Below, piece by piece: positions 1 to 15,407 of a stretch of 64,000 nucleotides of DNA. The translations under genes and the position numbers were made by a program. The number at the start of each line of letters is the position of its first letter. Position 1 is the stretch's first letter. The notes under the pieces are model-generated. The model was not told where the DNA came from. It worked only from the letters and a program-made list of their open reading frames with translations, and made no database searches. The stretch is from the NCBI RefSeq assembly GCF_024502345.1, contig NZ_JALDNN010000001.1, one strand, 5' to 3'. This stretch comes from Escherichia coli. Lineage in GTDB: Bacteria; Pseudomonadota; Gammaproteobacteria; Enterobacterales; Enterobacteriaceae.

Positions 1-672
1 GACCGTTCCGTGGCAAAGCAAAAGTTCAAAATCACCAACTGGCCCACCTACAATAAAGCCCTCATCAACCGTGGCTCCATAACTTTCTGGCTGGATGATG
101 AAGCTATTCAGGCCTGGTATGAGTCAGCAACACCTTCTTCACGAGGCAGACCTCAGCGCTATTCTGACCTTGCCATCACGACTGTGCTGGTCATTAAACG
201 CGTATTCAGGCTGACCCTGCGCGCTGCGCAGGGCTTTATTGATTCCATTTTTTCTCTGATGAACGTTCCGCTACGCTGCCCGGATTACAGCTGTGTCAGC
301 AGGCGGGCAAAGTCGGTTAATGTCAGTTTCAAAACGCCCACCCGGGGTGAAATCGCACACCTGGTAATTGATTCCACCGGGCTGAAGGTCTTCGGTGAAG
401 GCGAGTGGAAAGTCAAAAAGCATGGCCAGGAACGCCGCCGTATCTGGCGTAAGCTGCATCTCGCCGTTGACAGTAAAACACATGAAATCATCTGCGCTGA
501 CCTGTCGCTGAACAACGTTACGGACTCAGAGGCCTTCCCCGGGTTAATCCGGCAAACCCACCGGAAAATCAGGTCAGCCGCCGCCGATGGCGCTTACGAT
601 ACCCGGCTATGTCACGATGAACTGCGGCGTAAGAAAATCAGCGCGCTTATCCCTCCCCGAAAAGGTGCGGGT
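1..672 (+). mobile_element. IS903-like (IS5 family) insertion sequence remnant; transposase N-terminal ~221 aa only, 3' part missing
   Basis: ORF 10..846 begins MAKQKFKITNWPTYNKALINRGS...RLCHDELRRKKISALIPPRKGAG, which I recognise as the IS903 transposase. The match ends near nt 672; downstream frame is read-through antisense to the GTPase gene. The element start lies at or beyond the window edge. Confidence 0.75.
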
Positions 673-1094
673 TGCATCACACCGTTCCAGAACTGCTCGT
701 CCACCGACAGCGCACGGTCATCAGCTTTGATGACCCACAGCACCAGGTCAAGCTCTGGCAGCATACGCCGGTACAGGGCGCGGTATTCATGGTCCCGTTG
801 TCCGTTCTCTCCCACGCCCGGTAAATCAACAATCACCAGACTGTGACGACCACTGCGCAGCCGGAAGCGCAGTATGTCGCGGGTGCAGGCGTTCACATCA
901 CTGACGGCGGAGACTTCCCCCCGAAAGAGTTCGTTACAGAGCGACGACTTACCGGCACCACTCTTGCCCATGATGCCAATCACCGGCTCGTAGTGGGTCA
1001 GATTCTGAATACGTTCAAGAATAAGCTGGCGAAGCGTATCGGGAAGCGACGCCAGCGGTTTTTCCAGGGCCTGAAGGCCATCAGTTTTATTCAT
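672..1094 (-). pseudogene. C-terminally truncated YfjP/YeeP-family GTPase
   Basis: ORF 612..1094 (-) has a P-loop GIMGKSGAGKSS and DLPGVGE motif typical of prophage YfjP/YkfA/YeeP GTPases. Only ~140 aa of an expected ~290 remain before the IS903 junction. Confidence 0.6.
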
Positions 1095-1726
1095 ACAGGG
1101 TTCTCAGCGTGAAAAACAAAAATCCCCGCGCTCCGGTCAGGGAGGCGGGGGATTCACGGAGATAATATCTATCTGAATTTATTTAGAATATAAGCAGGCT
1201 CATGTAACTGTAGCAGTGTCAACTTTACATCACAGCTCATGTTGGCTGGTGGTATTTTGCCAATAGTAGACATTTACGCCTAGGTTTAGATATCGAAATT
1301 AGTACACCAATATAGATACAGCAAAGAGGGAACTGATTTGTCTGCGCGAGACTAGAACCGTTGCCCCCTGTGGTTCGATGGATTGCAGGAAAATCATTTC
1401 CGGTGCTGAAGAGAGCCTCCGATACAACCTGAGAATATTTTAAGAACATCAAAATGAATGACGTAATTTACTCAAAGGCGATTGCCTAATATGTCATGAT
1501 ATTAGTAGCATTTAATTGCGTGAAAGTTTGTATATTCTTTTGAATTTATCTCAAAGCTAAAACCTCGTCAAAAATACACAAAAGGGTTTTGAGAAACAAG
1601 AGCCTGATGCTGAATCTGCTACAGAGCTGGGTTCTGTTCTGTTAAACTTGCGGTTAAAAATTTCCAAGAAAACCTAGGATATGACATGAGTTCACTGCAC
1701 ACCAGTAGTAGCAGCAGGGCGGTCAC

Positions 1727-4540
1727 ATGCCAATGGAGAGCTGTACGCAAATGAACGCCGTAGAAATTGAACAAGCCATCACGGATCTTGCAGAGCAACC
1801 CTTTGATCCTATAGAGTTTCCTTATGCTTTTCTTGAAGCCTTTGGTAACAAGGAAACGACTGTCAAACGCTTGCGCGCCGGTGCATCAAACAAATCCGAC
1901 TTGGGCGGTGTTCTCCAGAGCAATAATATTCACATTCTGACCTGCGAAGCAGGGACTGTGACTCAGATGTTGGCCGCGCTCAAGGCTAGCCCTGCGACAA
2001 CTAAAGCCAAGGCGAAGTTCATCCTGGCTACAGATGGCAAAGATTTCGAAGCTGAAGACCTCGTTAGCGGTCAGACTGTCGCTTGCGCCTTTAAAGACTT
2101 CCCAGATCACTTCGGCTTTTTCTTGCCATTAGCAGGCATTAGCACAGTTCGTCAGATTTGTGAGAACTCCTTTGACATTCGGGCCACTAGCCGGCTGAAT
2201 CGTCTGTATGTCGAGTTGTTGAAAGATAACCCTACCTGGGGGACGGCGGAGCGACGTCATGACATGAACAAATTCATGACTCGGCTGATCTTTTGTTTTT
2301 TCGCTGAGGATACTGACATTTTCGTGGGTAAGGGACGCTTTACTGAAACCGTTGCGCAGATGAGTACAAGAGATTCGTCGAATACGCATGAAGTTATCGC
2401 TACCTTGTTTCGTGCCATGAACACCAGTAACAAAGATAGAGCCGCCGCTGGCATCCCGCGCTGGGCCAATGAGTTTCCTTATGTCAACGGACGCTTGTTC
2501 TCTGGGAGTAATGATGTACCACTGTTCAGTAAGATTGCACGGTCTTATTTGCTCCATGTGGGTAGCCTTGACTGGACCAAGATTAATCCGGATATCTTTG
2601 GCTCGATGATTCAGGCAATTGCCGAAGACGAAGAACGCGGAGAGCTGGGGATGCATTACACCAGCGTACCCAACATCTTAAAAGTTTTGAATCCACTATT
2701 TCTGGACGACCTGCGCGCAAAGCTGGATGAGGCGGGTGACAATCCGCGTATGTTGCTTAACCTGCGTAAGCGCATTTCCCACATCCGTGTGTTCGACCCA
2801 GCGTGCGGTTCTGGTAACTTTTTGGTTATCGCGTACAAGGAAATGCGTGCCATTGAGGCCGAAATCAACAAGCGGCGTAATGAGCCAGATCGCGCCTCGG
2901 ATATCCCACTTACCAACTTTCGCGGGATTGAACTAAGAGATTTCCCGGCAGAGATCGCCCGCCTTGCGCTTGTTATCGCTGAGTACCAATGTGATGTACT
3001 GTACCGTGGGCTGCGGTTGGCCTTGGCTGAGCTTCTTCCGTTACGCAACGAAAATTGGATTACCTGTGGCAATGCACTACGGCTCGACTGGTTAAGAATT
3101 TGCCCGCCGACAGGAACAGGTGTGAAATTACATGGCGATGACTTGTTTGGATCTCCGCTTGATCAGGCAGAGATCGACTTTGAGAATGAAGGCGGAGAGA
3201 CATACATTTGCGGTAACCCACCATACCTTGGTTCAAAGTGGCAGACGGATGAACATAAAGCTGATCTTGGCACAATCTTTTCTGGTCGCGTGAAAAATTG
3301 GAAATCGCTCGATTATGTTGCTGGCTGGTTCCTGAAAGCCGCTGACTATGGTAGCCAGACAAGTTCCCAGGCTGCTTTTGTTGCCACTAATTCAATCAGC
3401 CAAGGGCAGCAAGTGTCGATTCTGTGGCCGGAAATATTCAAGGCAGGACAAGAGATTAGTTTCGCTTACACGAGCTTTAAGTGGTCGAACCTCGCTACTC
3501 ACAACGCCGGGGTCACAGTTGTTATCATCGGAATTTCTAACTGTGTAGGAAAGTCGCGACGCCTCTTTTCGGCTGGAGGAGACAATGGTGCGACGACGTG
3601 TCGTGAGGTGGAGCGCATCAACGCCTATTTGATCGCTGGCCCTAACATCATTGTGGAGGGGGACAGTTGTCCAGCCGACAGTCTTGCAACGATGCAGTTC
3701 GGTAACCACCCGTACTATGGTGCATCACTGATCTTTTCGAGATCTGAAGCACAGCAGATGATGTCTGTCGATCCGCGTACGGCGCGTTTTATTCGCCCAC
3801 TATATGGCTCCCAAGAGTTCATTTCCGCTGTGCCACGAGCCTGTCTATGGATTAACGACGATGAGGCTGACGAAGCGGGGACGATTCCTCTGATAGCTGA
3901 GCGTATGAGCGCCGTAGCAAGTGCTAGACGTGCAAAAAAACAAGACAAGGCAGCCCAGAAACTGGCTAAGACTCCATATCGCTTTCGCGACCAGCAGACA
4001 TCTACGAATCATATTCTTGTGGTTCCTCGAGTCAGTTCAGAGAACCGTCCTTGCTTGCCGGTTGGATTACTTGACTCTGACTCTATCGTTCAAGATCAAG
4101 CATTCGCCCTTTACGACGCTCCTCTCTGGAACCTCGCCATCATAGCGAGTCGCCTGCATCTAGTTTGGATCGCCACGGTTTGTGGAAAGTTAGAGACACG
4201 CTACCGCTATTCAAACACCCTCGGCTGGAATACTTTCCCGCTCCCAACACTCACTGAGAAAAATAAGGCAGACCTCACGCGCTGTGCAGAGGATATTCTT
4301 CTGACTAGGGAGCATCACTTCCCTGCAACCATTGCAGACCTTTATGACCCCGAGAAGATGCCAGACGACCTGCGTATTGTGCACGAGCGTAATGACGAAG
4401 TGCTTGAGCGTATTTACATTGGGCGCCGCTTTAAGAATGACACAGAGCGGCTTGAGAAGCTGTTTGACCTTTATACTAAGATGGCCGCTTCAACTGCATC
4501 GGGCAAAAGCAATAAACGTAAAGTGGGAACCAATGCATGA
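1727..4540 (+). CDS. MmeI-family (type IIG/IIL-like) N6-adenine DNA methyltransferase with target-recognition region; N-terminal nuclease motif apparently degenerate
   Basis: 937-aa ORF. SAM motif I FDPACGSGNFLV, catalytic motif IV GNPPY, and MmeI/PglX hallmarks FPYVNGRLF, HYTSVPNILKVLNPLFLDDL, FVATNSISQGQQVSILWP, RYRYSNTLGWNTFP, LYDPEKMP. Alternative start at 1751 (MNAVEIEQ). Confidence 0.85.
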   Translation: MPMESCTQMNAVEIEQAITDLAEQPFDPIEFPYAFLEAFGNKETTVKRLRAGASNKSDLGGVLQSNNIHILTCEAGTVTQMLAALKASPATTKAKAKFILATDGKDFEAEDLVSGQTVACAFKDFPDHFGFFLPLAGISTVRQICENSFDIRATSRLNRLYVELLKDNPTWGTAERRHDMNKFMTRLIFCFFAEDTDIFVGKGRFTETVAQMSTRDSSNTHEVIATLFRAMNTSNKDRAAAGIPRWANEFPYVNGRLFSGSNDVPLFSKIARSYLLHVGSLDWTKINPDIFGSMIQAIAEDEERGELGMHYTSVPNILKVLNPLFLDDLRAKLDEAGDNPRMLLNLRKRISHIRVFDPACGSGNFLVIAYKEMRAIEAEINKRRNEPDRASDIPLTNFRGIELRDFPAEIARLALVIAEYQCDVLYRGLRLALAELLPLRNENWITCGNALRLDWLRICPPTGTGVKLHGDDLFGSPLDQAEIDFENEGGETYICGNPPYLGSKWQTDEHKADLGTIFSGRVKNWKSLDYVAGWFLKAADYGSQTSSQAAFVATNSISQGQQVSILWPEIFKAGQEISFAYTSFKWSNLATHNAGVTVVIIGISNCVGKSRRLFSAGGDNGATTCREVERINAYLIAGPNIIVEGDSCPADSLATMQFGNHPYYGASLIFSRSEAQQMMSVDPRTARFIRPLYGSQEFISAVPRACLWINDDEADEAGTIPLIAERMSAVASARRAKKQDKAAQKLAKTPYRFRDQQTSTNHILVVPRVSSENRPCLPVGLLDSDSIVQDQAFALYDAPLWNLAIIASRLHLVWIATVCGKLETRYRYSNTLGWNTFPLPTLTEKNKADLTRCAEDILLTREHHFPATIADLYDPEKMPDDLRIVHERNDEVLERIYIGRRFKNDTERLEKLFDLYTKMAASTASGKSNKRKVGTNA

Positions 4541-6582
4541 GCAACAAGATTAGATCTGTACCGTCAGTTTCTGTTACCTACTCACGCAACGGAGCATCGA
4601 CCAAGGCTAATTCTCTTGGGATGCGTCCTATGCAAGAAAGGGCTTATGAGAAGCGCGGAGAACAATATCTTCTCATAAAGTCGCCGCCCGCCTCTGGCAA
4701 GAGTCGTGCGCTGATGTTCGTCGCACTCGATAAACTCGCAAACCAGGGGATCAAACAGGCAATCATTGTCGTGCCGGAAAAATCTATCGGCGCGAGCTTC
4801 AACGATGAACCGCTATCGCAGTTTGGATTCTGGGCTGATTGGCATGTTGAACCTAAGTGGAATCTGTGCAACGCCCCCGGTAACGACAACGGCGGCAAGG
4901 TAAAATCTTTCGGCTCTTTTCTTGAAAGTAGCGACAAGGTGCTTGTTTGTACACACGCAACCTTTCGCTTCGCGGTCGATGCCTACGGTGTAGAGGCGTT
5001 TGACGATCGCCTGATCGCCGTCGATGAATTTCACCATGTGTCCGCTAACCCGGATAACAAGCTTGGTCAGCATCTGGGACAGTTCATTGAGCGTGACAAG
5101 ACGCACATCGTGGCCATGACCGGCTCCTACTTCCGGGGAGATGCGGAAGCCGTTTTGGCTCCTCAGGATGAGTCTAGGTTCGATACCGTCACCTACACCT
5201 ACTACGAACAACTCAACGGTTACGAATACCTCAAACAGCTTGATATCGGATACTTCTTTTATAGTGGATCATACATTGATGACATCCTCAATGTCCTCGA
5301 TCCTGACAAGAAAACGATTATCCATATTCCCAACGTCAATTCGCGCGAGAGTACGAAGGATAAAATTAAGGAGGTGGAGCACATTCTGAGCGAGCTTGGC
5401 GATTGGCAAGGTGCGGATCCTACGACTGGTTTTCAGCTAGTCAAGCGCCCCGATGGCCATGTGTTGCGTATTGCTGACCTGGTGGACCCAGCCAGTCAAG
5501 GCAAGATTCAGGAAAGCCTCCGAGCTCCAGAAATGAAGACAGACCGTGACTATGTAGACATCATTATTGCACTTGGTATGGCGAAGGAAGGTTTCGACTG
5601 GATCTGGTGCGAACATGCGCTGACTGTTGGCTACCGTGCCAGCCTGACTGAGATCGTGCAGATTATCGGTCGCGCTACTCGCGACGCGCCGGGTAAAACC
5701 CGCGCGAGATTTACTAACTTGATCGCCGAGCCCGACGCTGTAGAGGGCGCAGTAACTGAGGCAGTCAACGATACCTTGAAAGCTATCGCGGCGAGCCTGT
5801 TGATGGAACAGGTACTGGCTCCGCGCTTCGAGTTCAAGCCCAAGAATCCTGAAATCGGTCCGACTCCAGGCTTTGATTATGGTGATGGAGGATATGACCC
5901 GGATAGCTGCAATTTTGGTGTTAATGAGCAGACAGGGACGTATCAAATCGAGATTAAGGGACTTGCCGAGCCTAGGAGCAAAGAGGCGGCACGTATCTGC
6001 CAGGAAGATTTAAACGAAGTGATCGCGGCCTTTGTGCAGGATAAGCCCGCCATCGAACGAGGCCTGTTCGATGAAGAGCTGATCCCTGAAGAGTTAACAC
6101 AGGTTCGTATGGGTAAGATCATCAAAGAAAAGTATCCTGAACTTGATGCTGAAGATCAGGAGGCTGTACGTCAGCATGCTATCGCCGCCCTTAACCTCAC
6201 GCAGCAGGCCAAGCGTCTTGCTACCGGTGAAAACGATGGGACGCTCAATACTGCTCTTATTGACGGAGTGCGTCGCTTTGCAATGGATGTGCGCGATTTA
6301 GACATAGACCTTATCGACCGCATCAATCCCTTTGGTGAAGCCTACGCTATCCTTGCTAAGACGATGAGTGAAGACAGTTTGAAGCAGGTCGCGGCGGCCA
6401 TCTCGGCCAAGCGTACTTCGATCACGCCTGAAGATGCCAAGGTGATCGCCAAGCGTGCCGCTGAATTCAAACGTGAACGTGGGCGCCTCCCATCGTTAAC
6501 TTCGCTGGATGCTTGGGAAAAACACCTTGCTGAAGGTGCAGCCGCGTTTATGCGTTTTAGGGCGGAGGGACGTTATGAGTAA
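4537..6582 (+). CDS. SF2 DExH-box helicase with ~280-aa C-terminal extension of unknown function
   Basis: 681-aa ORF. Walker A PPASGKS, motif II VDEFHH, motif III MTGSY, motif VI QIIGRATR. Start ATG overlaps the methyltransferase stop (ATGA at 4537-4540). Confidence 0.8.
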   Translation: MSNKIRSVPSVSVTYSRNGASTKANSLGMRPMQERAYEKRGEQYLLIKSPPASGKSRALMFVALDKLANQGIKQAIIVVPEKSIGASFNDEPLSQFGFWADWHVEPKWNLCNAPGNDNGGKVKSFGSFLESSDKVLVCTHATFRFAVDAYGVEAFDDRLIAVDEFHHVSANPDNKLGQHLGQFIERDKTHIVAMTGSYFRGDAEAVLAPQDESRFDTVTYTYYEQLNGYEYLKQLDIGYFFYSGSYIDDILNVLDPDKKTIIHIPNVNSRESTKDKIKEVEHILSELGDWQGADPTTGFQLVKRPDGHVLRIADLVDPASQGKIQESLRAPEMKTDRDYVDIIIALGMAKEGFDWIWCEHALTVGYRASLTEIVQIIGRATRDAPGKTRARFTNLIAEPDAVEGAVTEAVNDTLKAIAASLLMEQVLAPRFEFKPKNPEIGPTPGFDYGDGGYDPDSCNFGVNEQTGTYQIEIKGLAEPRSKEAARICQEDLNEVIAAFVQDKPAIERGLFDEELIPEELTQVRMGKIIKEKYPELDAEDQEAVRQHAIAALNLTQQAKRLATGENDGTLNTALIDGVRRFAMDVRDLDIDLIDRINPFGEAYAILAKTMSEDSLKQVAAAISAKRTSITPEDAKVIAKRAAEFKRERGRLPSLTSLDAWEKHLAEGAAAFMRFRAEGRYE

Positions 6583-7753
6583 TTCTGATTTAGACGATTT
6601 GGCGGCAGAACTTGCTGAATTTGCACCACCGGAGAAGAAAAAAGGACGTCCAGCCAGCGAGGAACGCATCATCGCAGGTTTTGAGGAAATCCAGCGCTTC
6701 GCTGACCAACATGGACGTGCGCCGCAACACGGCGAAGAGCGTGAGATCTTTGAGCGCCTCTATGCAGTGCGGCTCGACCGGCTACGCAGTCTCCCAGACT
6801 GCCGTGCCTTGCTAGAGCCGCTGGATCATCAAGGCTTATTGGCTGGAGGGGGTGATGTAGCGGAGTCAGCGGACGAAATTATCGATATCGATAATTTGGC
6901 TGCCGAACTGACGGATGTTTCCAGCGAGGATGATATCACAGTCTTGCGTCATGTTCGTGCTAGCGCCGAAAAGCGTGCTGTACAAGGGATCGCGGATCGC
7001 AAGCCGTGCGAGGATTTTGATACATTCAAACCGCTATTTGAACAGGTGCGCAGTGATCTAAGTTCAGGGTTAAGAGTGACCCGACCTTTTGGACAGTATG
7101 CAACGATTGAAGTGGGCCATTGGTTCATCCTGGATGGTCAAACGGCTTATGTGGCTGAGGAAGGTGAAGAGTTCGATTCTCCACAGGGGAAGAAAGATGC
7201 TCGGCTGCGTGTCATTTATTCGAATGGTACAGAAAGTAACCTGCTTCGGCTGTCATTAGTTCGTGCTTTGTATAAAGACGAAACAGCACGTCGAATTACC
7301 GATCCAGACATGGGGCCTTTATTCAGCGATGCTCTAGAAGAGAGCGATCTAGAAAGTGGCACCATTTATGTATTGCGTTCGCTATCAGATAACCCTTATG
7401 TGGCCGAACATCGTGATGTTATTCACAAGATTGGTGTGACTGGCGGCAAGGTCGAGACTCGTATTGCTAATGCTGAACACGATTCCACCTATCTGTTGGC
7501 GAAGGTAGAGGTGGTCGCTTCATACAAACTCGCAGGTATCAACCGCACCCGGATGGAAAACCTGTTTCACAGGTTGTTTGCACCCGCAAGGCTTAACATT
7601 ACCATTAACGACCGTTTCGGCCATCCAGTACAGCCCGAGGAATGGTTTCTCGTTCCGTTATTCGTTATCGATGAGGCTGTTGCACGTATTAAGGATGGTA
7701 GCATCATTGGGTATGTTTATGACCCCATGTCTGCGAAACTGGTGAAGGCATAG
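6575..7753 (+). CDS. T5orf172/MUG113 (GIY-YIG superfamily) domain protein, candidate nuclease, with acidic N-terminal domain of unknown function
   Basis: C-terminal GTIYVLRS...HKIGVTGGKVETRIANAEH...PEEWFLVPL fits the T5orf172 GIY-YIG-like pattern. GGAGGGA Shine-Dalgarno 6 nt upstream of ATG 6575; start overlaps the helicase stop (taa 6580-6582). The ORF track's upstream ATG at 6509 lacks an RBS. Confidence 0.65.
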   Translation: MSNSDLDDLAAELAEFAPPEKKKGRPASEERIIAGFEEIQRFADQHGRAPQHGEEREIFERLYAVRLDRLRSLPDCRALLEPLDHQGLLAGGGDVAESADEIIDIDNLAAELTDVSSEDDITVLRHVRASAEKRAVQGIADRKPCEDFDTFKPLFEQVRSDLSSGLRVTRPFGQYATIEVGHWFILDGQTAYVAEEGEEFDSPQGKKDARLRVIYSNGTESNLLRLSLVRALYKDETARRITDPDMGPLFSDALEESDLESGTIYVLRSLSDNPYVAEHRDVIHKIGVTGGKVETRIANAEHDSTYLLAKVEVVASYKLAGINRTRMENLFHRLFAPARLNITINDRFGHPVQPEEWFLVPLFVIDEAVARIKDGSIIGYVYDPMSAKLVKA

Positions 7754-7868: not shown

Positions 7869-8660
7869 ATGAATAGTAACCTGACCAAGATATGTTACCG
7901 TGGTGAGACTGGTGAAAGTGATCTAAGAACGTTGATACTTGGTGAGATTCTATATATCTCACTACGAGATGTTTTAATCACGCTGAATAAAGAAAATAGA
8001 GAAATCAACGCTGATTACACAGTAAAATCGATGGCTGGAATAATCAGGGCGCAATTACAGGCTCTTGACCCTGATGAGTATATTACTACAGATGCTGAAA
8101 ATGGTGTTTTTGAAGGTCAGAAAGAGATCTTCGTCACCCAGCCAGGTTTGTATCGAGTCATGTCAAGTGACCGAAGCGCTGCCGGTAAGCGCTTTCAAAA
8201 ATGGTTATTTCATGAAGTCATACCATCATTGACTAAGCATGGTGTATACCCGCCTCCGCCAGAAGCGAAAGGTTCAGCCCTTGCACAAATGGCTGAGATA
8301 CTTGCTCAAAATTCGCGAGCACTTGCTGACGCAATCCATAAACACGAAAAACTGGCCGAAGATGTCTCACAGGTTAAAGGTAAAGTTGCCAACGTTGAAA
8401 GCCGTCTGGAACTGTTAGAATCAGGTCCTTCCACTGTAACTGAAGATATGCATACTCTTGATAGCCGTCTCGCTTATTTGGACATGAGCATGGAAGAAAA
8501 GCATACCACCGAGACATTAGCCTGGTGCGAGAATATTTCTGTTCAAAATAACAGGAAGGTGATTCGCAAGGACTGTAGGGAGAATTCGCTCTTTACAACG
8601 CAGACTATCGACGAAGCAATCGCTATCATGACTGAAAGTGGAAAAATCACACCAAATTGA
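7869..8660 (+). CDS. Bro-N (KilA-N/antirepressor-like) domain protein with coiled-coil C-terminus
   Basis: 263-aa ORF. N-terminal ...DLRTLILGEILYISLRDVLITL...GLYRVMSSDRSAAGKRFQKWLFHEVIPSLTKHGVY resembles the Bro-N fold pattern. GAGGAT RBS upstream. Confidence 0.55.
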   Translation: MNSNLTKICYRGETGESDLRTLILGEILYISLRDVLITLNKENREINADYTVKSMAGIIRAQLQALDPDEYITTDAENGVFEGQKEIFVTQPGLYRVMSSDRSAAGKRFQKWLFHEVIPSLTKHGVYPPPPEAKGSALAQMAEILAQNSRALADAIHKHEKLAEDVSQVKGKVANVESRLELLESGPSTVTEDMHTLDSRLAYLDMSMEEKHTTETLAWCENISVQNNRKVIRKDCRENSLFTTQTIDEAIAIMTESGKITPN

Positions 8661-8748: not shown

Positions 8749-9375
8749 TTACAGATCGATTTGGCTACAGCCGAAGTTACGGTCTCCTTCACCAAACACT
8801 TTGCTTTCGACTTTGGTGAGGTAATCCAGTCGGGTTAACAGCGCTTGGTAGTTATGCTGGAAGTCAGCATTATTGGTATCCAGCACGTACTTACAGTTGT
8901 CAGGAAAATGGACCAGACCAGGGTGATCATCCAGTTTCAGTCCCAGGGCGCTGTACCACGCTCCCGTAATCATCCCTCTCAGGTTATCGTGCTGATCGTA
9001 ATCCCCGAGGTGGTAGTAAGCGTCTTTGTTGAACAACAGGCAAATGTGGTAGTGGCATTTACCTGACTCAGAATACTCTTTCGCCCATATAATAAATAAA
9101 GGGCAACGGTAGATGCGTTTACCTTCACGCTCCTTACGGGTACGGTCAGCCTCCAGTTTAGCTCTGAGGGAATCACGCATTCGGGATATCACCCCTGGTT
9201 CAAGATTAGGGAAACAGCAGATATTGTCTCCGTTATCGACTATCTTCGGATAATGCAGATCGACACGTACCGCCGTTAACCTGGGGTAACGGTTAGTCAA
9301 ATAACATAATAATTTTTTAATCTTGATCTGATATTCGAGGATATGTACTCCATGAGTACCTTGATATGTTTTCAT
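8749..9375 (-). CDS. YfjJ/YagK-family (inovirus Gp2-like) prophage protein
   Basis: 208-aa ORF resembling the YagK/YfjJ family of CP4-type islands; in the island-backbone position expected from K-12 CP4-57. Confidence 0.65.
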   Translation of the reverse strand: MKTYQGTHGVHILEYQIKIKKLLCYLTNRYPRLTAVRVDLHYPKIVDNGDNICCFPNLEPGVISRMRDSLRAKLEADRTRKEREGKRIYRCPLFIIWAKEYSESGKCHYHICLLFNKDAYYHLGDYDQHDNLRGMITGAWYSALGLKLDDHPGLVHFPDNCKYVLDTNNADFQHNYQALLTRLDYLTKVESKVFGEGDRNFGCSQIDL

Positions 9376-11245: not shown

Positions 11246-11458
11246 TTACTCTATTGCCCGGGTTCGTTGTAAAATCCATTCGTCTATTTCAGCCTCTATC
11301 CAGCCGACAGATTGCAGCCCCAGACGACGTTGTTTCGGGAACGTTGGGTCATAGCGTGGCGATTTCGGATTGATCCAGTCATAGATTGTTGAACGTGACA
11401 AGCCCGTTTTGTCAATTACTGTAGAAAGACGAAGTATTTTAACATTAGATTTGTTCAT
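11246..11458 (-). CDS. alpA: AlpA-family prophage transcriptional regulator (excision activator)
   Basis: 70-aa ORF MNKSNVKILRLSTVIDKTGLSRSTIYDWINPKSPRYDPTFPKQRRLGLQSVGWIEAEIDEWI matches AlpA. Confidence 0.85.
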   Translation of the reverse strand: MNKSNVKILRLSTVIDKTGLSRSTIYDWINPKSPRYDPTFPKQRRLGLQSVGWIEAEIDEWILQRTRAIE

Positions 11459-11879
11459 AGCTGATTACCTCAAATCGAAGTGCTCTGGATGATGTGAGAT
11501 TAGCTTTAAGGCAGCCAATCTAAAATGTATGTGCCAAAAAAACTTTTTTTTACGAACGGGAAATAAATATCCTATTGAAATTTAATGATTTTATTTTTTT
11601 TCTGTCGGGTCCATCAGAACGGTGTGAATTCAGTTACAGCCTTCCGGTCCGGTAATGGGCCAGTTATATGTTGAGTGGCTGCGCTTCGATGACTTCTGTT
11701 TCAGTGGGCTGGTCTATCTCCGACGTGCTGTGGCAGGTAGCGGTTCAGCAGTAGCCATTATTCGTTCTGCTCCGTCAGTACCGCACCCAGCAGCCGCAAG
11801 ATGCTCTCTTCATTGGGAAGATACCTACCACTGTCAACGCCAAGATTGTTGGCCGTTTCGTCCGCATCCCCTATTGGTC

Positions 11880-12570
11880 ATTAATGTTGTCCGCTTTCCG
11901 CCGTTTCATCTCTTTGTTCAGGCGCTCCAGCGTGTTTGTGGAGTGGGTTTTTCACTTGGTGTGCTTTCGGGAGGCCGAAGGACGCCAGCACGTCTGCCTC
12001 TGCTTCGTCCATCACCCCGGTGACCGCCGGGTTGCTTTTCTCCCATTGACCGGCAACCTTGCACAGGTGGCATGGGCGCTTTTCTCGTCGGTCTGCACGA
12101 ACACCTGTTGCAGCGCCGCACGGACCACCGACTGGTTTGCACGGCTGACGCGGCTCAGCACGTTGCGCATGAAGTGGACCCGGCAGCGCTGCCAGCTGGC
12201 GGAGAACATCTGCCTATCGCCGCCTTCAGGCTCAGCAGGAAGGTCAGCCAGGATGCCGTTTATCCATGCTTCCTGGATAACCGCGTTGAGCGCCTTCTCA
12301 GACAATCTGTGGGCCTCCAGGAAGGGCGGGAAGTACGTCCCTTTAAGCAGCTTCGGAATACGCAGGTCCACAGCGTGCCGAGCTGGCGGGGACTGACGGT
12401 CACGATAGCCGTTGTGGTAGGTTTCGCGCTCATCGCTGCGCTAGTGGGCTCCGCGTTGATGTGCTGAGTGACATCTGCTTCCATAATGCAGTTGAGCATA
12501 AATTCGGTGAGTTCACGCAGAAAATCCTCGCCGCCGAGTAGCATCAGGGTGTTGCTGAATGTCATGCTGT
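11880..12570 (-). pseudogene. IS256-family (Mutator-type) transposase remnant, frameshifted with internal deletion
   Basis: Minus-strand fragments: 12260..12565 (MTFSNTLMLLGGEDFLRELTEFMLNCIMEADVTQ, typical N-terminus) and 12012..12371 (...QRCRVHFMRNVLSRV motif) in different frames; the DDE core between them is absent. Confidence 0.55.
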
Positions 12571-12784
12571 TGTCATTCCGAATTTACACCACGCCCTAAG
12601 ACTCTACCTTATTTTCTTTGCAAAGCAGGCTGCTTGTGCAAGTTGTACATGTAGTTAACAGGCAGTAAGTATGGCAAACCATTATTTCATGTCTTCACAT
12701 CTGGTTCTTCATTCAGTTAAGTAGTAAAAATGAAAGGGATGTCAGAGCAAGAACAGATGACGTTGTGTAACTGACCAATGAAGG

Positions 12785-13558
12785 ATGATATGGAATATGC
12801 TTGATATTTTTTGCTCGGAATTTGAAGAAAAAAGAAACAAATTAAAGACCTACCTTGAAAGCTCGGGATTTCTTTATAGGCATTCTATCATCAAAAAAAT
12901 GTCTCTTTTGGATGGTATGGATGAAAGCCAGAATTTTGAGTTGTTGCAGGCGAAACAATATAATCGTGATGATATACAATGCTGGGAGTATATTAGCTCT
13001 AAGTGGACCGTCGTTCCTATTATGATGGGTTCGCAAAGCCTTAAACACTTTTTTACATGGAATTTTAAGGCCGCTGGGATATTTCAGCGATATGGAAAGG
13101 ATATGTGGGATATCAACAAGATAATTGCAGTTAAATCTTTATTGTTTGCTAGTTCAGTCTTAGGTAGTTGCCTTGGGGTTGCAGGCTATGGCCCGTTGCT
13201 GCCTTCGGAGCTTGCATTAGACAAAAAGAAGCTAACTAAGAAAAAACAGTCAGCAAGAATGGGAGGGATATCTAAGGCTGAATTATATCTCCCGATAAAA
13301 GAAGAGACGATAAGATTGCTCCACCAAAATGTTCCTGTGGATGGTAGATGGAAAAATAAAACGGTTGCAGCAAAGGCAATAGAGGCAGATTTAGTCATCT
13401 TTGTACAAAATTTGAAATCTCAAAACCAAAATCTGGATCTTAATGAAGAAGATATTATTACAGTCGTCAAACGTTGGGAACGCAATGATGAAAGAGTAAA
13501 GGCTGCATTTGAGGGAACGGTGAAGCAAAAAATCTCTGGCAAGAAGGGCTCGGGTTAG
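12785..13558 (+). CDS. Hypothetical AT-rich, lysine-rich protein with one predicted hydrophobic segment
   Basis: 257-aa ORF; hydrophobic stretch IIAVKSLLFASSVLGSCLGVAGYGPLL. No recognisable domain. Confidence 0.45.
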   Translation: MIWNMLDIFCSEFEEKRNKLKTYLESSGFLYRHSIIKKMSLLDGMDESQNFELLQAKQYNRDDIQCWEYISSKWTVVPIMMGSQSLKHFFTWNFKAAGIFQRYGKDMWDINKIIAVKSLLFASSVLGSCLGVAGYGPLLPSELALDKKKLTKKKQSARMGGISKAELYLPIKEETIRLLHQNVPVDGRWKNKTVAAKAIEADLVIFVQNLKSQNQNLDLNEEDIITVVKRWERNDERVKAAFEGTVKQKISGKKGSG

Positions 13559-13589
13559 AACTTCTCATTATTTTTTCCAAAAATAAGAA

Positions 13590-13609
13590 CCGCGCCTTTG
13601 AAGGCGCGG
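13590..13609 (-). terminator. Hairpin terminator between convergent integrase and hypothetical gene
   Basis: ccgcgcc-tttgaa-ggcgcgg, followed on the minus strand by a T-rich tract. Confidence 0.4.
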
Positions 13610-13620
13610 ATTAAGTAGAA

Positions 13621-14862
13621 TCAAACAACAAGTTTTAATGCACCGGCACTAGATTCTACCATGCTTCCTTTATCTGCTCTTTTAACAAAATCAGCCCACC
13701 ATTGCATCATCGGCCTACGTTGCTCAAGATAATCACTGCGGTTATAAGCGCGACGTACCTCATTTTTGTCTACATGAGCAAGTGCGGCTTCAATGACATC
13801 AGGAGGAAATCCTTGCTCATTGAGGGCTGTACTGGCGATAGAACGCAAACCATGTGAAACCAGCACTCCCCCTAAACCGGCACGCTTGAGTGCAGCATTC
13901 ACGGTTTGACTGTTCATCGGCTGAGTGGGCTTAATGCGGCTTGGAAAAATAAAATCTCGGCCACCACTGAGCGGCTTCATCATTTCCAGAATAGCCAGAG
14001 CCCCATCAGATAATGGAACGGTATGGTCCCGGTTCATTTTCATTCGGGCTGCTGGAATTTTCCATTCGTTAGCATCAAAATCGATCTCATTCCACCGAGC
14101 TTCTGCGGCTTCTGCGGGGCGGGTGATGGTGAGAAGTTGCCACATGAACAGACACCGCGTAGACAGGCTGATACTGGCCGTACGCATAGTTTGCATCAAC
14201 TGAGGCAACTGATCCGGACGAATACTGGGCATGTTCTTTTTCTGAGGTTTCTCGAAGGCTTTGCCAATATTAACACTGGGAACTGCATCAATCAGGCCCG
14301 TGTTTTGGGCATAAATCATGACTTCATTGATCCGTTGGCAAAGACGGCGGACAGTTTCCAGTGCTCCTCGGGCCTGAACGGGTTGAACGGCTTGAACCAG
14401 TGTATGGGCTTTAATATCTGTAACGCTTACGTTGCCAATTGCGGGAAATATATCTCTTTCAAGCGAACGCCAGATATCATCAGCATAGTCCTCGGTTACA
14501 CTGGCTTTCTTCACATTCCACCAACGCTCGGCAACTAACAAGAAAGTGTTGGTTTTGGCCTCCTGAGAATTTCTTATCTGTTCTTTTTGGTATTCCTGAG
14601 GATCGATTCCTTTTGCCAGTAATACTTTGGATTCAGCTCTGAGCTTACGAGCATCGGAAAGCGAGACAGCAGGATAGGAACCGAAGCTCTGTTTAGTTCG
14701 CTGTTTTGTCAGAGGTCGGTAATAACGGAATTGCCAGAGCTTACTGCCACTGGATTTGATTAGCAGCGTCAGTCCGTCACCATCATACAACTGATAATCG
14801 GCATCTTTAGATTTGGCTGCTTTGATTTCCGTATCCGTTAACGGCTTGGTTTTTCTTGCCAC
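13621..14862 (-). CDS. intA: P4-type tyrosine integrase of a CP4-57-like island (GTG start)
   Basis: 413-aa ORF beginning (M)ARKTKPLTDTEIKAAKSKDADYQLYDGDGLTLLIKSSGSKLWQFRYY, immediately downstream of ssrA on the same strand. Confidence 0.9.
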   Translation of the reverse strand: MARKTKPLTDTEIKAAKSKDADYQLYDGDGLTLLIKSSGSKLWQFRYYRPLTKQRTKQSFGSYPAVSLSDARKLRAESKVLLAKGIDPQEYQKEQIRNSQEAKTNTFLLVAERWWNVKKASVTEDYADDIWRSLERDIFPAIGNVSVTDIKAHTLVQAVQPVQARGALETVRRLCQRINEVMIYAQNTGLIDAVPSVNIGKAFEKPQKKNMPSIRPDQLPQLMQTMRTASISLSTRCLFMWQLLTITRPAEAAEARWNEIDFDANEWKIPAARMKMNRDHTVPLSDGALAILEMMKPLSGGRDFIFPSRIKPTQPMNSQTVNAALKRAGLGGVLVSHGLRSIASTALNEQGFPPDVIEAALAHVDKNEVRRAYNRSDYLEQRRPMMQWWADFVKRADKGSMVESSAGALKLVV

Positions 14863-15044: not shown

Positions 15045-15407
15045 TGGTGGAGCTGGCGGGAGTTGAACCCGCGTCCGAAATTCCTACATCCTCGGTACTA
15101 CATGCTTAGTCAGTCTTTACATTCGCTTGCCAGCTGCGGACGGACACGCCACTAACAAACTAGCCTGATTAAGTTTTAACGCTTCAACCCCAGGCAGGGC
15201 TTCCACGCGATCTCTTTTGGGTTTGACCTCTCTTGATCCCCGTCCTAAGAGCGGAGGCTAGGGAGAGAGGGCTCTAAGCAGGTTATTAAGCTGCTAAAGC
15301 GTAGTTTTCGTCGTTTGCGACTATTTTTTGCGGCTTTTTACGAGGCCAACCGCCCCTCGGCATGCACCTTGGGTTTCGCAAATCCCGTCGAATCCAGAAT
15401 CAGCCCC
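15045..15407 (-). ncRNA. ssrA: tmRNA (SsrA); its 3' end is the island integration site
   Basis: Reverse complement reads GGGGCTGATTCTGGATTCGACGGG...GGGTTCAACTCCCGCCAGCTCCACCA, with the tag-coding region and tRNA-like ends. Confidence 0.95.

What the first reader, a model, noticed from the sequence alone, without database searches (positions are those of the whole stretch)
1095..1726. Unusually long (~630 bp) noncoding region upstream of the methyltransferase gene
No convincing ORF lies between the truncated GTPase gene and gene 1 (the 71-aa minus-strand ORF 1237..1452 has no supporting features). Restriction-modification-like modules often carry regulatory elements that delay or limit nuclease expression, so this region may hold the promoter plus a regulatory RNA or operator.
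Basis: seen in the sequence. Interest (0 to 1): 0.4.

Follow-up and report, generated by a model that had tools for sequence, protein, structure and literature searches.

The report
Two back-to-back gene control regions
The long gene-free stretch is a patchwork junction inside an E. coli genomic island: it holds a widespread, apparently undescribed promoter-plus-terminator leader for the neighbouring GTPase gene, a short conserved leader for the methyltransferase gene, and unconserved filler between them, but no regulatory RNA.

Summary
The ORF-free stretch is real and slightly longer than reported: 1095-1750, 656 bp, because the methyltransferase starts at ATG 1751, not 1727. It is not one regulatory unit. 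It is a mosaic junction in a CP4-57-type island at ssrA.

- **1085-1201, minus strand.** Conserved leader of the divergent YeeP/YfjP-family GTPase gene. It has a -10-like TATTAT at the centre of a 25-bp palindrome (1153-1177). A strong intrinsic-terminator hairpin (1124-1150) and T-tract (1112-1122) follow, ending about 17 nt before the start codon. The motif precedes every intact GTPase homolog fetched (44 of 44, about 15 genera). It occurs at about 8,900 places in 4,172 of 5,426 E. coli genomes. It is not in Rfam and I found no paper on it.
- **1202-1625.** Poorly conserved AT-rich filler with recombination and IS breakpoints.
- **1626-1750.** Methyltransferase-proximal leader, 88-98% identical between alleles whose gene bodies are more diverged. 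It contains an invariant TGTTAAACT (candidate extended -10) and a 22-codon upstream ORF whose stop overlaps the start codon.

No RNA structure signal, Rfam hit, C-protein, or real small gene was found on the methyltransferase side. Mechanisms are inferred, not shown.

The parts
1..669 (+). Internal fragment of an IS903B transposase gene, abutting the GTPase gene (context; left boundary of what survives of the island backbone).
   Evidence: Positions 1-673 are 100% identical to IS903B transposase genes. Identity to the intact island L001 starts at 670.
670..1094 (-). 5' 425 bp (about 141 codons) of a YeeP/YfjP/YkfA-family GTPase gene, truncated by the IS fragment.
   Evidence: 100% identical to the full-length 291-aa gene in L001. 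Pfam MMR_HSR1/Dynamin_N.
1085..1201 (-). Conserved GTPase leader motif as a whole (covariance-model match). It is the only deeply conserved non-coding element inside the finding.
   Evidence: Model R1 scores 126.3 bits, E 7e-21, with a single copy in the 64-kb window. It matches 44 of 44 loci with an intact GTPase 5' end. The core at 1112-1189 has 8,891 places in 4,172 of 5,426 E. coli genomes.
1153..1177 (.). 25-bp imperfect palindrome TTCA-N3-AGATA-N-TATCT-N3-TGAA; candidate protein-binding site (operator or loading site) overlapping the promoter.
   Evidence: Exact pattern match, 0.01 expected by chance. Exact in 31 loci; 0-3 mismatches in 34 of 35 genome loci. The sequence, not pairing, is conserved, which points to a DNA-level site.
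1162..1188 (-). Sigma-70-type promoter-like box: -35-like TTCTAA (1188-1183), 15-nt conserved spacer, -10-like TATTAT (1167-1162). Predicted start near 1155.
   Evidence: Scan. In the K-12 paralogs yfjP and ykfA the same positions (TTGAAA-15-TATCAT) were assigned as the promoter within in-vitro RNA polymerase holoenzyme binding peaks (PMC3946193). No start site has been mapped.
1124..1150 (-). GC-rich stem-loop of an intrinsic-terminator-like element: 10 bp with one bulge, 6-nt loop.
   Evidence: Hairpin alone -20.2 kcal/mol. The 78-nt leader folds at -27.3, z = -4.2. There are 36 distinct hairpin variants, median -15.8 kcal/mol, with compensatory changes at several pairs. K-12 yfjP has an unrelated 13-bp stem that the scan tool calls a terminator.
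1112..1122 (-). T5-G-T5 tract directly 3' of the hairpin.
   Evidence: Read from the sequence. There are 7-10 T in the tail of all 36 variants.
1102..1105 (-). Shine-Dalgarno-like GAGA, 7 nt before the GTPase ATG (1094-1092). The flanking TTCACGCTGAG can pair with CTCCGTGAA (1161-1153).
   Evidence: The outer helix is 88% paired across the alignment but mostly by conserved sequence. Whether its 5' arm is transcribed depends on the unmapped start site.
1202..1424 (.). Non-conserved spacer. 1202-1290/1334 is shared only with closely related islands; 1335-1424 is private to this arrangement.
   Evidence: Breakpoints at 1290, 1312/1334 and 1425. IS66 remnants replace 1291-1424 in L002 and L006. 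No conservation beyond about -106 among GTPase loci of other genera. No plasmid or phage match.
1425..1625 (+). Distal, AT-rich DNA that travels with the methyltransferase module in some alleles only.
   Evidence: Nested homology starts at 1425, 1509 and 1610. Mean pairwise identity is 44-72%. Two minus-strand promoter-like hits equal the chance expectation (2 found, 1.5 expected), and their -35 boxes are not conserved.
1626..1750 (+). Proximal conserved leader of the methyltransferase operon. The conserved block continues into the gene to about 1865.
   Evidence: Mean pairwise identity is 88-98%, against 74-92% in the gene body and below 72% upstream. Against the window allele it is 90-96%, with the gene at 72-80% and four-fold sites at 42-58%. 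It is present in all 8 distinct leader alleles and on Klebsiella plasmids.
1640..1648 (+). TGTTAAACT, candidate extended -10 promoter element (TG-N-TAAACT). Predicted start near 1655.
   Evidence: One of two TGNTANNNT matches on the + strand of the region. Invariant in all leader alleles. Not tested. The consensus -35/-10 scan finds nothing here.
1686..1754 (+). Candidate upstream ORF: 22 codons, MSSLHTSSSSRAVTCQWRAVRK. Weak SD AGGA at 1676-1679. Its TGA overlaps the methyltransferase ATG (ATGA).
   Evidence: Present in all 8 leader alleles with in-frame 3- and 6-nt indels, always ending in an ATGA overlap with an in-frame ATG. Against it: substitutions are mostly non-synonymous, the SD is weak (-4.0), and ATG 1751 has its own GGAG at 1735-1738 (-6.4).
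1751..4540 (+). MmeI-like type IIG restriction-modification enzyme gene with corrected start. First gene of a three-gene module with a DEAD/DEAH helicase (4537-6582) and a T5orf172/GIY-YIG protein (6575-7753).
   Evidence: PADLOC REase_MTase_IIG, 8.7e-284, full length. Pfam hits for the two partners. PGAP annotation.

Best explanation
The 656-bp gene-free stretch is a mosaic junction between the conserved backbone of a CP4-57-type genomic island (integrated at ssrA) and a defence-gene cargo module. It holds two independent 5' control regions facing away from each other, separated by about 420 bp of unconserved AT-rich filler.

**Left, minus strand, 1085-1201: leader of the island's GTPase operon.**
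- A sigma-70-type promoter-like box has its -10 (TATTAT) at the centre of a 25-bp palindrome, with an unusually conserved spacer.
- About 12 nt further on, a strong intrinsic terminator follows. Its T-tract ends about 17 nt before the start codon.
- No room is left for a promoter after the terminator, so the GTPase can only be made from transcripts that read through it.
- The leader therefore most likely acts as an attenuator that keeps the backbone operon off. A DNA-binding factor at the palindrome or spacer would either repress initiation or load onto RNA polymerase to let it pass the terminator.
- In some islands the same hairpin also sits just after the stop codon of an upstream co-directional gene and may terminate it.

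**Right, plus strand, 1626-1750: promoter-proximal leader of the methyltransferase-helicase-nuclease operon.**
- It probably consists of an extended -10 promoter (TGTTAAACT), a short 5' UTR, and possibly a 22-codon upstream ORF translationally coupled to the methyltransferase.
- It is not a structured RNA.

**Shown:** the mosaic structure, conservation, palindrome, hairpin with T-tract, and their positions. **Inferred:** promoter use, transcription start sites, termination, and the identity of any regulator.
For: **Mosaic structure**
- Homology breakpoints lie at 1290, 1334, 1425, 1509 and 1610.
- Only 2 of 5,426 E. coli genomes have the whole region.
- IS66 remnants occupy the middle in other genomes.

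**Island context**
- tmRNA, intA and an AlpA-family gene lie in the window.

**GTPase leader**
- The alignment of 35 leaders from about 15 genera and the CM hits in 44 of 44 loci, one per locus, show it is tied to the GTPase gene.
- It occurs at 8,891 places in 4,172 of 5,426 E. coli genomes.
- The palindrome matches exactly, with 0.01 expected by chance.
- The leader folds with z = -4.2.
- There are 36 hairpin variants, median -15.8 kcal/mol, each followed by 7-10 T.
- 85% of cells are paired, against 79% in shuffles and 35-57% in slid controls; 47 double-change cells against 18.
- K-12 yfjP and ykfA keep a hairpin and T-tract with unrelated stems.
- In vitro RNA polymerase holoenzyme binding peaks lie upstream of ykfA and yfjP, with the promoter assigned to this box (PMC3946193).

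**Methyltransferase leader**
- A conservation peak at 1626-1865.
- An invariant TGTTAAACT.
- An upstream ORF with a conserved ATGA junction in 8 of 8 alleles.
- No fold signal.
Against: - No transcription start or 3' end is mapped for any copy. A term-seq supplement lists nothing at yfjP, ykfA or yeeP, probably because these genes are silent in K-12.
- The -35 is weak and the spacer is 15 nt, so the promoter assignment could be wrong.
- The outer helix and the palindrome show sequence conservation rather than covariation, so an RNA role for them is unproven.
- No alternative (antiterminator) hairpin was found.
- No regulator is identified. The adjacent HTH-WYL regulator has different palindromes (GGACA-N5-TGTCC) in front of its own gene. 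YfjR showed no ChIP-exo binding in K-12 (PMC8464067).
- The methyltransferase-side conservation peak may partly reflect recombination. L002 has a 100% identical gene, but its upstream switches to another allele type at about 1630-1655.
- The upstream ORF has a weak SD and mostly non-synonymous changes, and ATG 1751 has its own GGAG.
Confidence: 0.7

Rival explanations
1. One reading: the region encodes a regulatory small RNA, riboswitch-like leader or C-protein-type operator that delays or limits expression of the restriction-modification module.
For: - The proximal 125 nt is more conserved than the gene body.
- The region is AT-rich and long.
Against: - No Rfam hit at E<=1.
- Fold z-scores of -0.53, -0.03, +0.36 and +0.23.
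- The one plausible helix (CUGCUAC/GUAGCAG) is broken, not compensated, in L002 and L005.
- No promoter or terminator consensus for an antisense RNA.
- No C-protein gene is present.
- Homologs at 87% protein identity or less share no upstream sequence.
- 1202-1625 is not conserved.
Confidence: 0.07
2. The hairpin and T-tract are simply the transcription terminator (insulator) of whatever lies upstream. They have no regulatory role for the GTPase. The palindrome box is only the remnant 3' end of an upstream backbone gene.
For: - In about 9 of 38 loci, a co-directional, Pfam-less 290-390-aa gene ends 0-25 nt before the box, so the hairpin lies just after its stop codon.
- K-12 rnlB and perR are co-directional upstream neighbours.
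Against: - The motif is conserved with the GTPase gene whatever lies upstream, including divergent cargo as in this window.
- The stop codon of the upstream gene falls at different places relative to the box.
- The box is conserved where it is non-coding.
- There is no room for a promoter between the T-tract and the ATG, so the GTPase must still be expressed through the terminator.
Confidence: 0.15
3. The stretch hides a real small protein gene: the 71-aa minus-strand ORF 1237-1452, the 59-aa antisense ORF 1619-1798, or another.
For: - ORFs of 34-71 aa exist.
- The antisense frame across 1626-1865 is open in all alleles.
Against: - No Pfam match for any of them.
- PGAP annotates none.
- The 71-aa ORF spans unrelated mosaic segments.
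- The antisense ORF has no ATG start, and its stop moves between alleles.
Confidence: 0.03

Closest known systems
AlpA / lambda-Q-type processive antitermination cassettes (P. aeruginosa alpB and PA0807 promoters; PMC7969949, PMC9371919)
   Same: - Promoter with a conserved protein-binding element in the -35/-10 spacer.
- An intrinsic terminator placed immediately upstream of the first ORF of a long operon.
- An AlpA-family (PF05930) gene encoded in the same island.
   Different: - The published AlpA binding element (GGGACG-N5-GGTA) is unrelated to the TTCA-N3-AGATA palindrome.
- The palindrome extends past the -10 to the predicted start site, which looks more like a repressor operator.
- No second copy of the box lies near intA or elsewhere in the island.
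- E. coli AlpA has not been shown to antiterminate.
- Nothing here was tested experimentally.
Classical 5'-leader transcription attenuators (premature intrinsic termination in 5' UTRs, as catalogued in E. coli by 3'-end mapping; PMC7815308)
   Same: A strong hairpin and U-tract lie between the promoter and the start codon, so downstream expression depends on read-through.
   Different: - The terminator begins only a few nt after the predicted start site.
- No competing antiterminator hairpin, leader peptide or ligand-binding fold is evident.
- It is not listed in that study's tables.
C-protein (controller) / C-box regulation of type II restriction-modification systems
   Same: A palindromic operator overlapping a promoter, next to a restriction-modification module.
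   Different: - No C gene is present.
- The palindrome is tied to the GTPase gene across about 15 genera irrespective of cargo, and it faces away from the methyltransferase.
Translationally coupled mini-cistrons / upstream ORFs with AUGA overlap
   Same: - A 22-codon upstream ORF ends in ATGA on the methyltransferase start.
- The same junction joins the methyltransferase and helicase genes at 4537-4540.
   Different: - Weak SD, no constraint on the peptide, and an independent GGAG for ATG 1751.
- Only 8 closely related alleles are available.

Membership tests
Intrinsic (Rho-independent) terminator | GC-rich stem-loop | tested here: met
   Window hairpin 1124-1150 folds at -20.2 kcal/mol. The 36 variants have a median of -15.8. 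Compensatory changes occur at pairs 57/77, 59/74 and 64/71.
Intrinsic (Rho-independent) terminator | U-rich tract immediately 3' of the stem | tested here: met
   T5GT5 at 1112-1122. There are 7-10 T in the tail of every variant. The scan tool calls the K-12 yfjP and Yersinia copies terminator-like. It misses the window copy because of the bulge in the stem.
Intrinsic (Rho-independent) terminator | Transcripts actually end there | not testable with these tools
   No 3'-end data exist for any copy. A term-seq supplement holds nothing at yfjP or ykfA.
5'-leader attenuator | Promoter upstream of the terminator and no promoter between terminator and start codon | tested here: inconclusive
   A promoter-like box lies at 1162-1188. 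Holoenzyme binding was shown in vitro for K-12 paralogs (PMC3946193). Only about 17 nt separate the T-tract from the ATG. No start site is mapped.
5'-leader attenuator | Alternative (antiterminator) structure or sensing element | tested here: not met
   Folds of 38 leaders show only the terminator plus an enclosing outer helix, with no competing hairpin.
AlpA/Q-type antitermination cassette | Antiterminator-family gene in the same element | tested here: met
   An AlpA-family ORF lies at window 11246-11458, 70.6% identical to K-12 AlpA. Pfam PF05930, E 1.9e-20.
AlpA/Q-type antitermination cassette | Specific binding element within the promoter that matches the known element | tested here: not met
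   The spacer is conserved, but the sequence is unrelated to the published GGGACG-N5-GGTA.
AlpA/Q-type antitermination cassette | Factor-dependent read-through of the downstream terminator | not testable with these tools
   Needs reporter or in vitro transcription assays.
C-protein-controlled restriction-modification system | Small HTH controller gene upstream of or overlapping the nuclease gene | tested here: not met
   No such ORF lies in 1095-1750. Small ORFs have no Pfam match.
Rfam RNA families (any) | Match to a curated covariance model | tested here: not met
   No match at E<=1 in 600-2300. None in this region at gathering threshold.
Structured cis-regulatory RNA upstream of the methyltransferase | Fold more stable than shuffles, or covarying pairs | tested here: not met
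   z -0.53, -0.03 and +0.36. The candidate helix is broken in other alleles.
Translationally coupled upstream ORF | Conserved ORF with start, SD and stop overlapping the downstream start | tested here: inconclusive
   The ATGA overlap is kept in 8 of 8 alleles, including after a 6-nt insertion. However, the SD is only -4.0 kcal/mol and the peptide is unconstrained.

The most novel reading that the evidence does not exclude
The GTPase leader (palindrome/promoter plus immediate terminator) is the control switch of the whole backbone operon of CP4-57/CP4-44/CP4-6-type islands. An island-encoded factor, most attractively the AlpA-family protein, would load onto RNA polymerase at the conserved promoter element. 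It would drive processive read-through of this and downstream terminators when the island is induced. That would make E. coli AlpA an antiterminator and give these very common 'cryptic prophage' islands a defined on/off circuit placed exactly at the edge of their defence-cargo hotspot.
Probability: 0.2. Interest if true: 0.6.

Novelty: new member of a known kind. Interest (0 to 1): 0.4.

Why it matters
- **Reach.** Islands of the CP4-57/CP4-44/CP4-6 type are present, often in several copies, in most E. coli and many other Enterobacterales. They carry defence systems, adhesins (Ag43) and toxin-antitoxin modules. How their conserved backbone operon (GTPase, WYL regulator, antirestriction, RadC, CbtA/CbeA) is switched on is not known.
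- **A testable switch.** A compact, nearly universal promoter-palindrome-terminator leader right in front of the first backbone gene is a concrete candidate for that switch.
- **A boundary marker.** The leader also marks the precise boundary, about 106 nt upstream of the GTPase ATG, of the variable cargo hotspot. This is useful for annotating defence islands.
- **For the restriction-modification-like module.** The result is mostly negative and therefore clarifying: there is no hidden regulatory RNA, only a short conserved leader with a possible coupled mini-ORF.

Tried and rejected
- **Rfam.** Scan at E<=1 over 600-2300, and the whole window at gathering threshold: nothing in the region.
- **Small ORFs.** Six scanned against Pfam: nothing.
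- **tRNA/tmRNA remnants as att-site scars.** None found.
- **Plasmid and phage collections, for the origin of the middle piece.** No match for 1290-1520. Phages gave none at all. Plasmids carry only the two end modules.
- **Apparent ~30-nt inverted repeat (1195-1241 vs 1596-1624), suggesting a MITE-like insert.** The best inverted local alignment equals shuffled controls. Rejected.
- **Antisense small protein or antisense RNA as the cause of the conserved block 1626-1865.** No ATG, a variable stop, no promoter or terminator, and no fold signal. Rejected.
- **The WYL regulator downstream of the GTPase as binder of the leader palindrome.** Its own upstream region carries a different palindrome, GGACA-N5-TGTCC. 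Not supported.
- **A second copy of the leader box near intA, alpA or elsewhere in the island.** None found.
- **Published transcript ends.** The term-seq supplement has no entry for yfjP, ykfA or yeeP, or for their coordinates. The dRNA-seq paper is not held.
- **Literature on yfjP, ykfA, yeeP or yfjR.** No description of the leader.
- **TAGGAT (1675-1680) as a -10.** Position 2 is lost in L005-type alleles. Less likely than TGTTAAACT.

Full report
**1. Observation**

The window begins inside an IS903B transposase gene (1-669). This fragment is fused at 669/670 to the 5' 425 bp of a minus-strand GTPase gene (670-1094).

From 1095 there is no credible ORF until the methyltransferase.
- PGAP annotates nothing in the two complete E. 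coli genomes that carry the identical 632 bp.
- The six small ORFs have no Pfam match.
- No tRNA is present and no Rfam family matches at E<=1.

The methyltransferase start is ATG 1751, not 1727.
- PGAP places it there.
- Nucleotide similarity to more distant homologs begins at 1745-1752.
- The full-length PADLOC type IIG profile aligns from residue 5 of that version.

The gap is therefore 1095-1750, 656 bp, at 41.6% G+C against 49.9% for the window.

**2. Context**

The window is E. coli chromosome with a CP4-57-type island at ssrA.
- tmRNA lies at 15045-15407.
- intA lies at 13621-14862, and an AlpA-family gene at 11246-11458.

The methyltransferase is a full-length MmeI-like type IIG enzyme. 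It heads a three-gene cargo module with a DEAD/DEAH helicase and a T5orf172/GIY-YIG protein. The GTPase is the first gene of the conserved island backbone: GTPase, WYL regulator, then antirestriction, RadC and CbtA. The finding therefore sits exactly on the cargo/backbone junction, between divergent genes.

**3. The region is a mosaic**

Only 2 of 5,426 E. coli genomes hold the whole stretch. Homology falls into separate pieces.

| Window coordinates | Relationship to other loci |
|---|---|
| 1095 to 1290, 1312 or 1334 | Travels with the GTPase gene in closely related islands that carry other cargo |
| 1291-1424 | Replaced by IS66 remnants in other genomes |
| From 1425, 1509 or 1610 to 1750 | Travels with the methyltransferase |

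**4. GTPase side**

A distant search showed that window 1112-1189 has 8,891 matches in 4,172 of 5,426 E. coli genomes, with a median of two per genome. I fetched GTPase homologs from one genome per species and from viral contigs. I then aligned the 106 nt upstream of each start.

Loci came from Escherichia, Salmonella, Klebsiella, Citrobacter, Enterobacter, Kluyvera, Yersinia, Serratia, Hafnia, Erwinia, Photorhabdus, Arsenophonus and others. All share the same architecture:
- A box CCAAATAATTTCAGAYAGATATTATCTCNGTGAAT.
- A GC-rich hairpin whose sequence falls into several classes.
- A T4-5-N-T4-5 tract.
- TTCACGCTGAG, or TTCTGTCTGAGG in one class.
- The ATG 7-9 nt further on.

A covariance model built from the alignment gave these results:
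- It finds exactly one copy in the 64-kb window (1085-1201, minus strand, 126 bits).
- It finds one copy in each of the 44 loci with an intact GTPase 5' end.
- It finds divergent copies in front of K-12 yfjP and ykfA.

Support for the hairpin:
- The window hairpin (1124-1150) folds at -20.2 kcal/mol. The 36 distinct variants have a median of -15.8 and are each followed by 7-10 T.
- The 78-nt leader has z = -4.2.
- On the model-fitted alignment, 85% of cells pair, against 79% in shuffles and 35-57% in slid controls. There are 47 double-change cells against 18.
- K-12 yfjP has a completely different 13-bp stem, which the scan tool calls terminator-like 27 nt before the ATG.
- The tool missed the window copy because of a one-base bulge in the stem.

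The box contains an exact 25-bp palindrome, TTCA-N3-AGATA-N-TATCT-N3-TGAA, at 1153-1177, with 0.01 expected by chance. A -10-like TATTAT sits at its centre. Here sequence is conserved rather than pairing, so this is a DNA-level site.

Shimada et al. found in-vitro RNA polymerase holoenzyme binding upstream of ykfA and yfjP. They assigned the promoter to the homologous TTGAAA-15-TATCAT (PMC3946193). That places the start site about 3-8 nt before the hairpin.

Whatever promoter is used, only about 17 nt separate the T-tract from the ATG. The GTPase must therefore be expressed through the terminator.

I read this as an attenuator or antitermination-type leader with an operator or loading site. 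The nearest described architecture is the AlpA/Q type: a binding element in the promoter spacer and a terminator just before the first ORF (PMC7969949). The island does encode an AlpA-family protein. However, the published AlpA element is unrelated in sequence, and no second copy of the box exists in the island.

The adjacent HTH-WYL regulator is the next gene in 28 of 35 loci. It has different palindromes, GGACA-N5-TGTCC, upstream of its own gene, so it is not the obvious binder.

In about 9 of 38 loci a fast-evolving, Pfam-less 290-390-aa gene ends 0-25 nt before the box. The hairpin may therefore also terminate that gene. This does not remove the need for read-through.

I found no paper or Rfam family describing the element. 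No 3'-end data exist for the K-12 copies.

**5. Middle, 1202-1625**

- There is no conservation beyond close relatives.
- There is no match in plasmids or phages for the private piece.
- Promoter-like and terminator-like hits are at chance level.
- An apparent inverted repeat is not above shuffles.

This is filler and recombination scar.

**6. Methyltransferase side**

Homologs at 87% protein identity or less share nothing upstream of the ATG. A deeply conserved regulatory RNA is therefore excluded.

Among E. coli-type alleles, including metagenome and Klebsiella plasmid copies, a conservation peak spans about 1626-1865.
- Mean pairwise identity is 88-98% there. It is 74-92% in the gene body and below 72% upstream.
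- Against the window allele the proximal 141 nt is 90-96% identical. The gene is 72-80% identical, and four-fold sites 42-58%.
- Part of this may be recombination. L002 has a 100% identical gene, but its upstream switches to another allele type at about 1630-1655.

Features of the block:
- An invariant TGTTAAACT at 1640-1648, a candidate extended -10.
- AGGA at 1676-1679.
- A 21-22-codon upstream ORF (1686-1754) whose TGA overlaps ATG 1751. In the L004-type allele a 6-nt insertion shortens it to 13 codons and creates a new in-frame ATG, so the ATGA overlap is kept.

Evidence against the upstream ORF: its SD is weak (-4.0 kcal/mol), its substitutions are mostly non-synonymous, and ATG 1751 has its own GGAG (-6.4, 12-nt spacing).

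No fold signal exists on either strand. No consensus promoter or terminator suggests an antisense RNA.

**7. Verdict**

The stretch is long because it is two control regions plus junk, not because it hides a regulatory RNA for the restriction-modification-like module. Its most interesting content is the GTPase leader. That element is a widespread, apparently undescribed promoter/palindrome/terminator cassette at the edge of a defence-cargo hotspot. It is a new member of a known kind, and its mechanism is inferred only.

Noticed in passing
window 1-673: The window starts inside an IS903B transposase gene, 100% identical to many copies. The IS sequence stops in the middle of that gene and is joined directly to codon ~141 of the GTPase gene. 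No complete E. coli genome in the collection has this junction. It is either an IS-mediated deletion of the island backbone or an assembly join.
   Followed up: partly
window 1751-7753: A full-length MmeI-like type IIG enzyme is chained by overlapping start/stop codons (ATGA at 4537-4540; 8-nt overlap at 6575-6582) to a DEAD/DEAH (ResIII-like) helicase and a T5orf172/GIY-YIG protein. The two partners have no convincing PADLOC family (the helicase only faint PbeA hits, E 1e-4; the GIY-YIG protein none). The trio recurs in E. coli islands, an ICE-like context (L005) and Klebsiella plasmids. The methyltransferase's specificity region is only 56-63% identical between alleles. This may be a composite defence system worth its own look.
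   Followed up: partly
L034-L066, about 2074-2340 (gap between the GTPase and HTH-WYL genes); L001 7865-8124: Two conserved copies of a GGACA-N5-TGTCC palindrome lie upstream of the YfjR-like HTH-WYL regulator gene, which follows the GTPase in 28 of 35 loci. They are a likely autoregulatory operator of the WYL protein. This part of the island is missing from the window.
   Followed up: partly
L094 1867-3018, L095 1868-2785, L096 1893-2912; L036, L052, L053, L056, L066 upstream of about 1115: A fast-evolving family of Pfam-less 290-390-aa proteins (17-25% identity between groups; one annotated 'transcriptional regulator') ends 0-25 nt before the GTPase leader box. It is co-directional with the GTPase and present in about a quarter of the islands sampled.
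   Followed up: partly
window 1751-1865: The first ~115 nt of the methyltransferase coding sequence are 93-100% identical between alleles whose later codons are saturated at synonymous sites. The conserved block therefore crosses the start codon. A recombination breakpoint lies at about 1630-1655 in strain 2013C-4282.
   Followed up: yes
window 1681-1689: A three-codon mini-ORF (ATG ACA TGA) overlaps the start of the 22-codon upstream ORF.
   Followed up: no
window 7869-8660 and 11246-14862: A BRO-N domain gene follows the cargo module. The island's far end has an AlpA-family gene (70.6% identical to K-12 AlpA) and intA next to ssrA. The rest of the window is core chromosome, including an rRNA operon at 39.7-44.7 kb, the Phe leader and RyfD.
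   Followed up: partly
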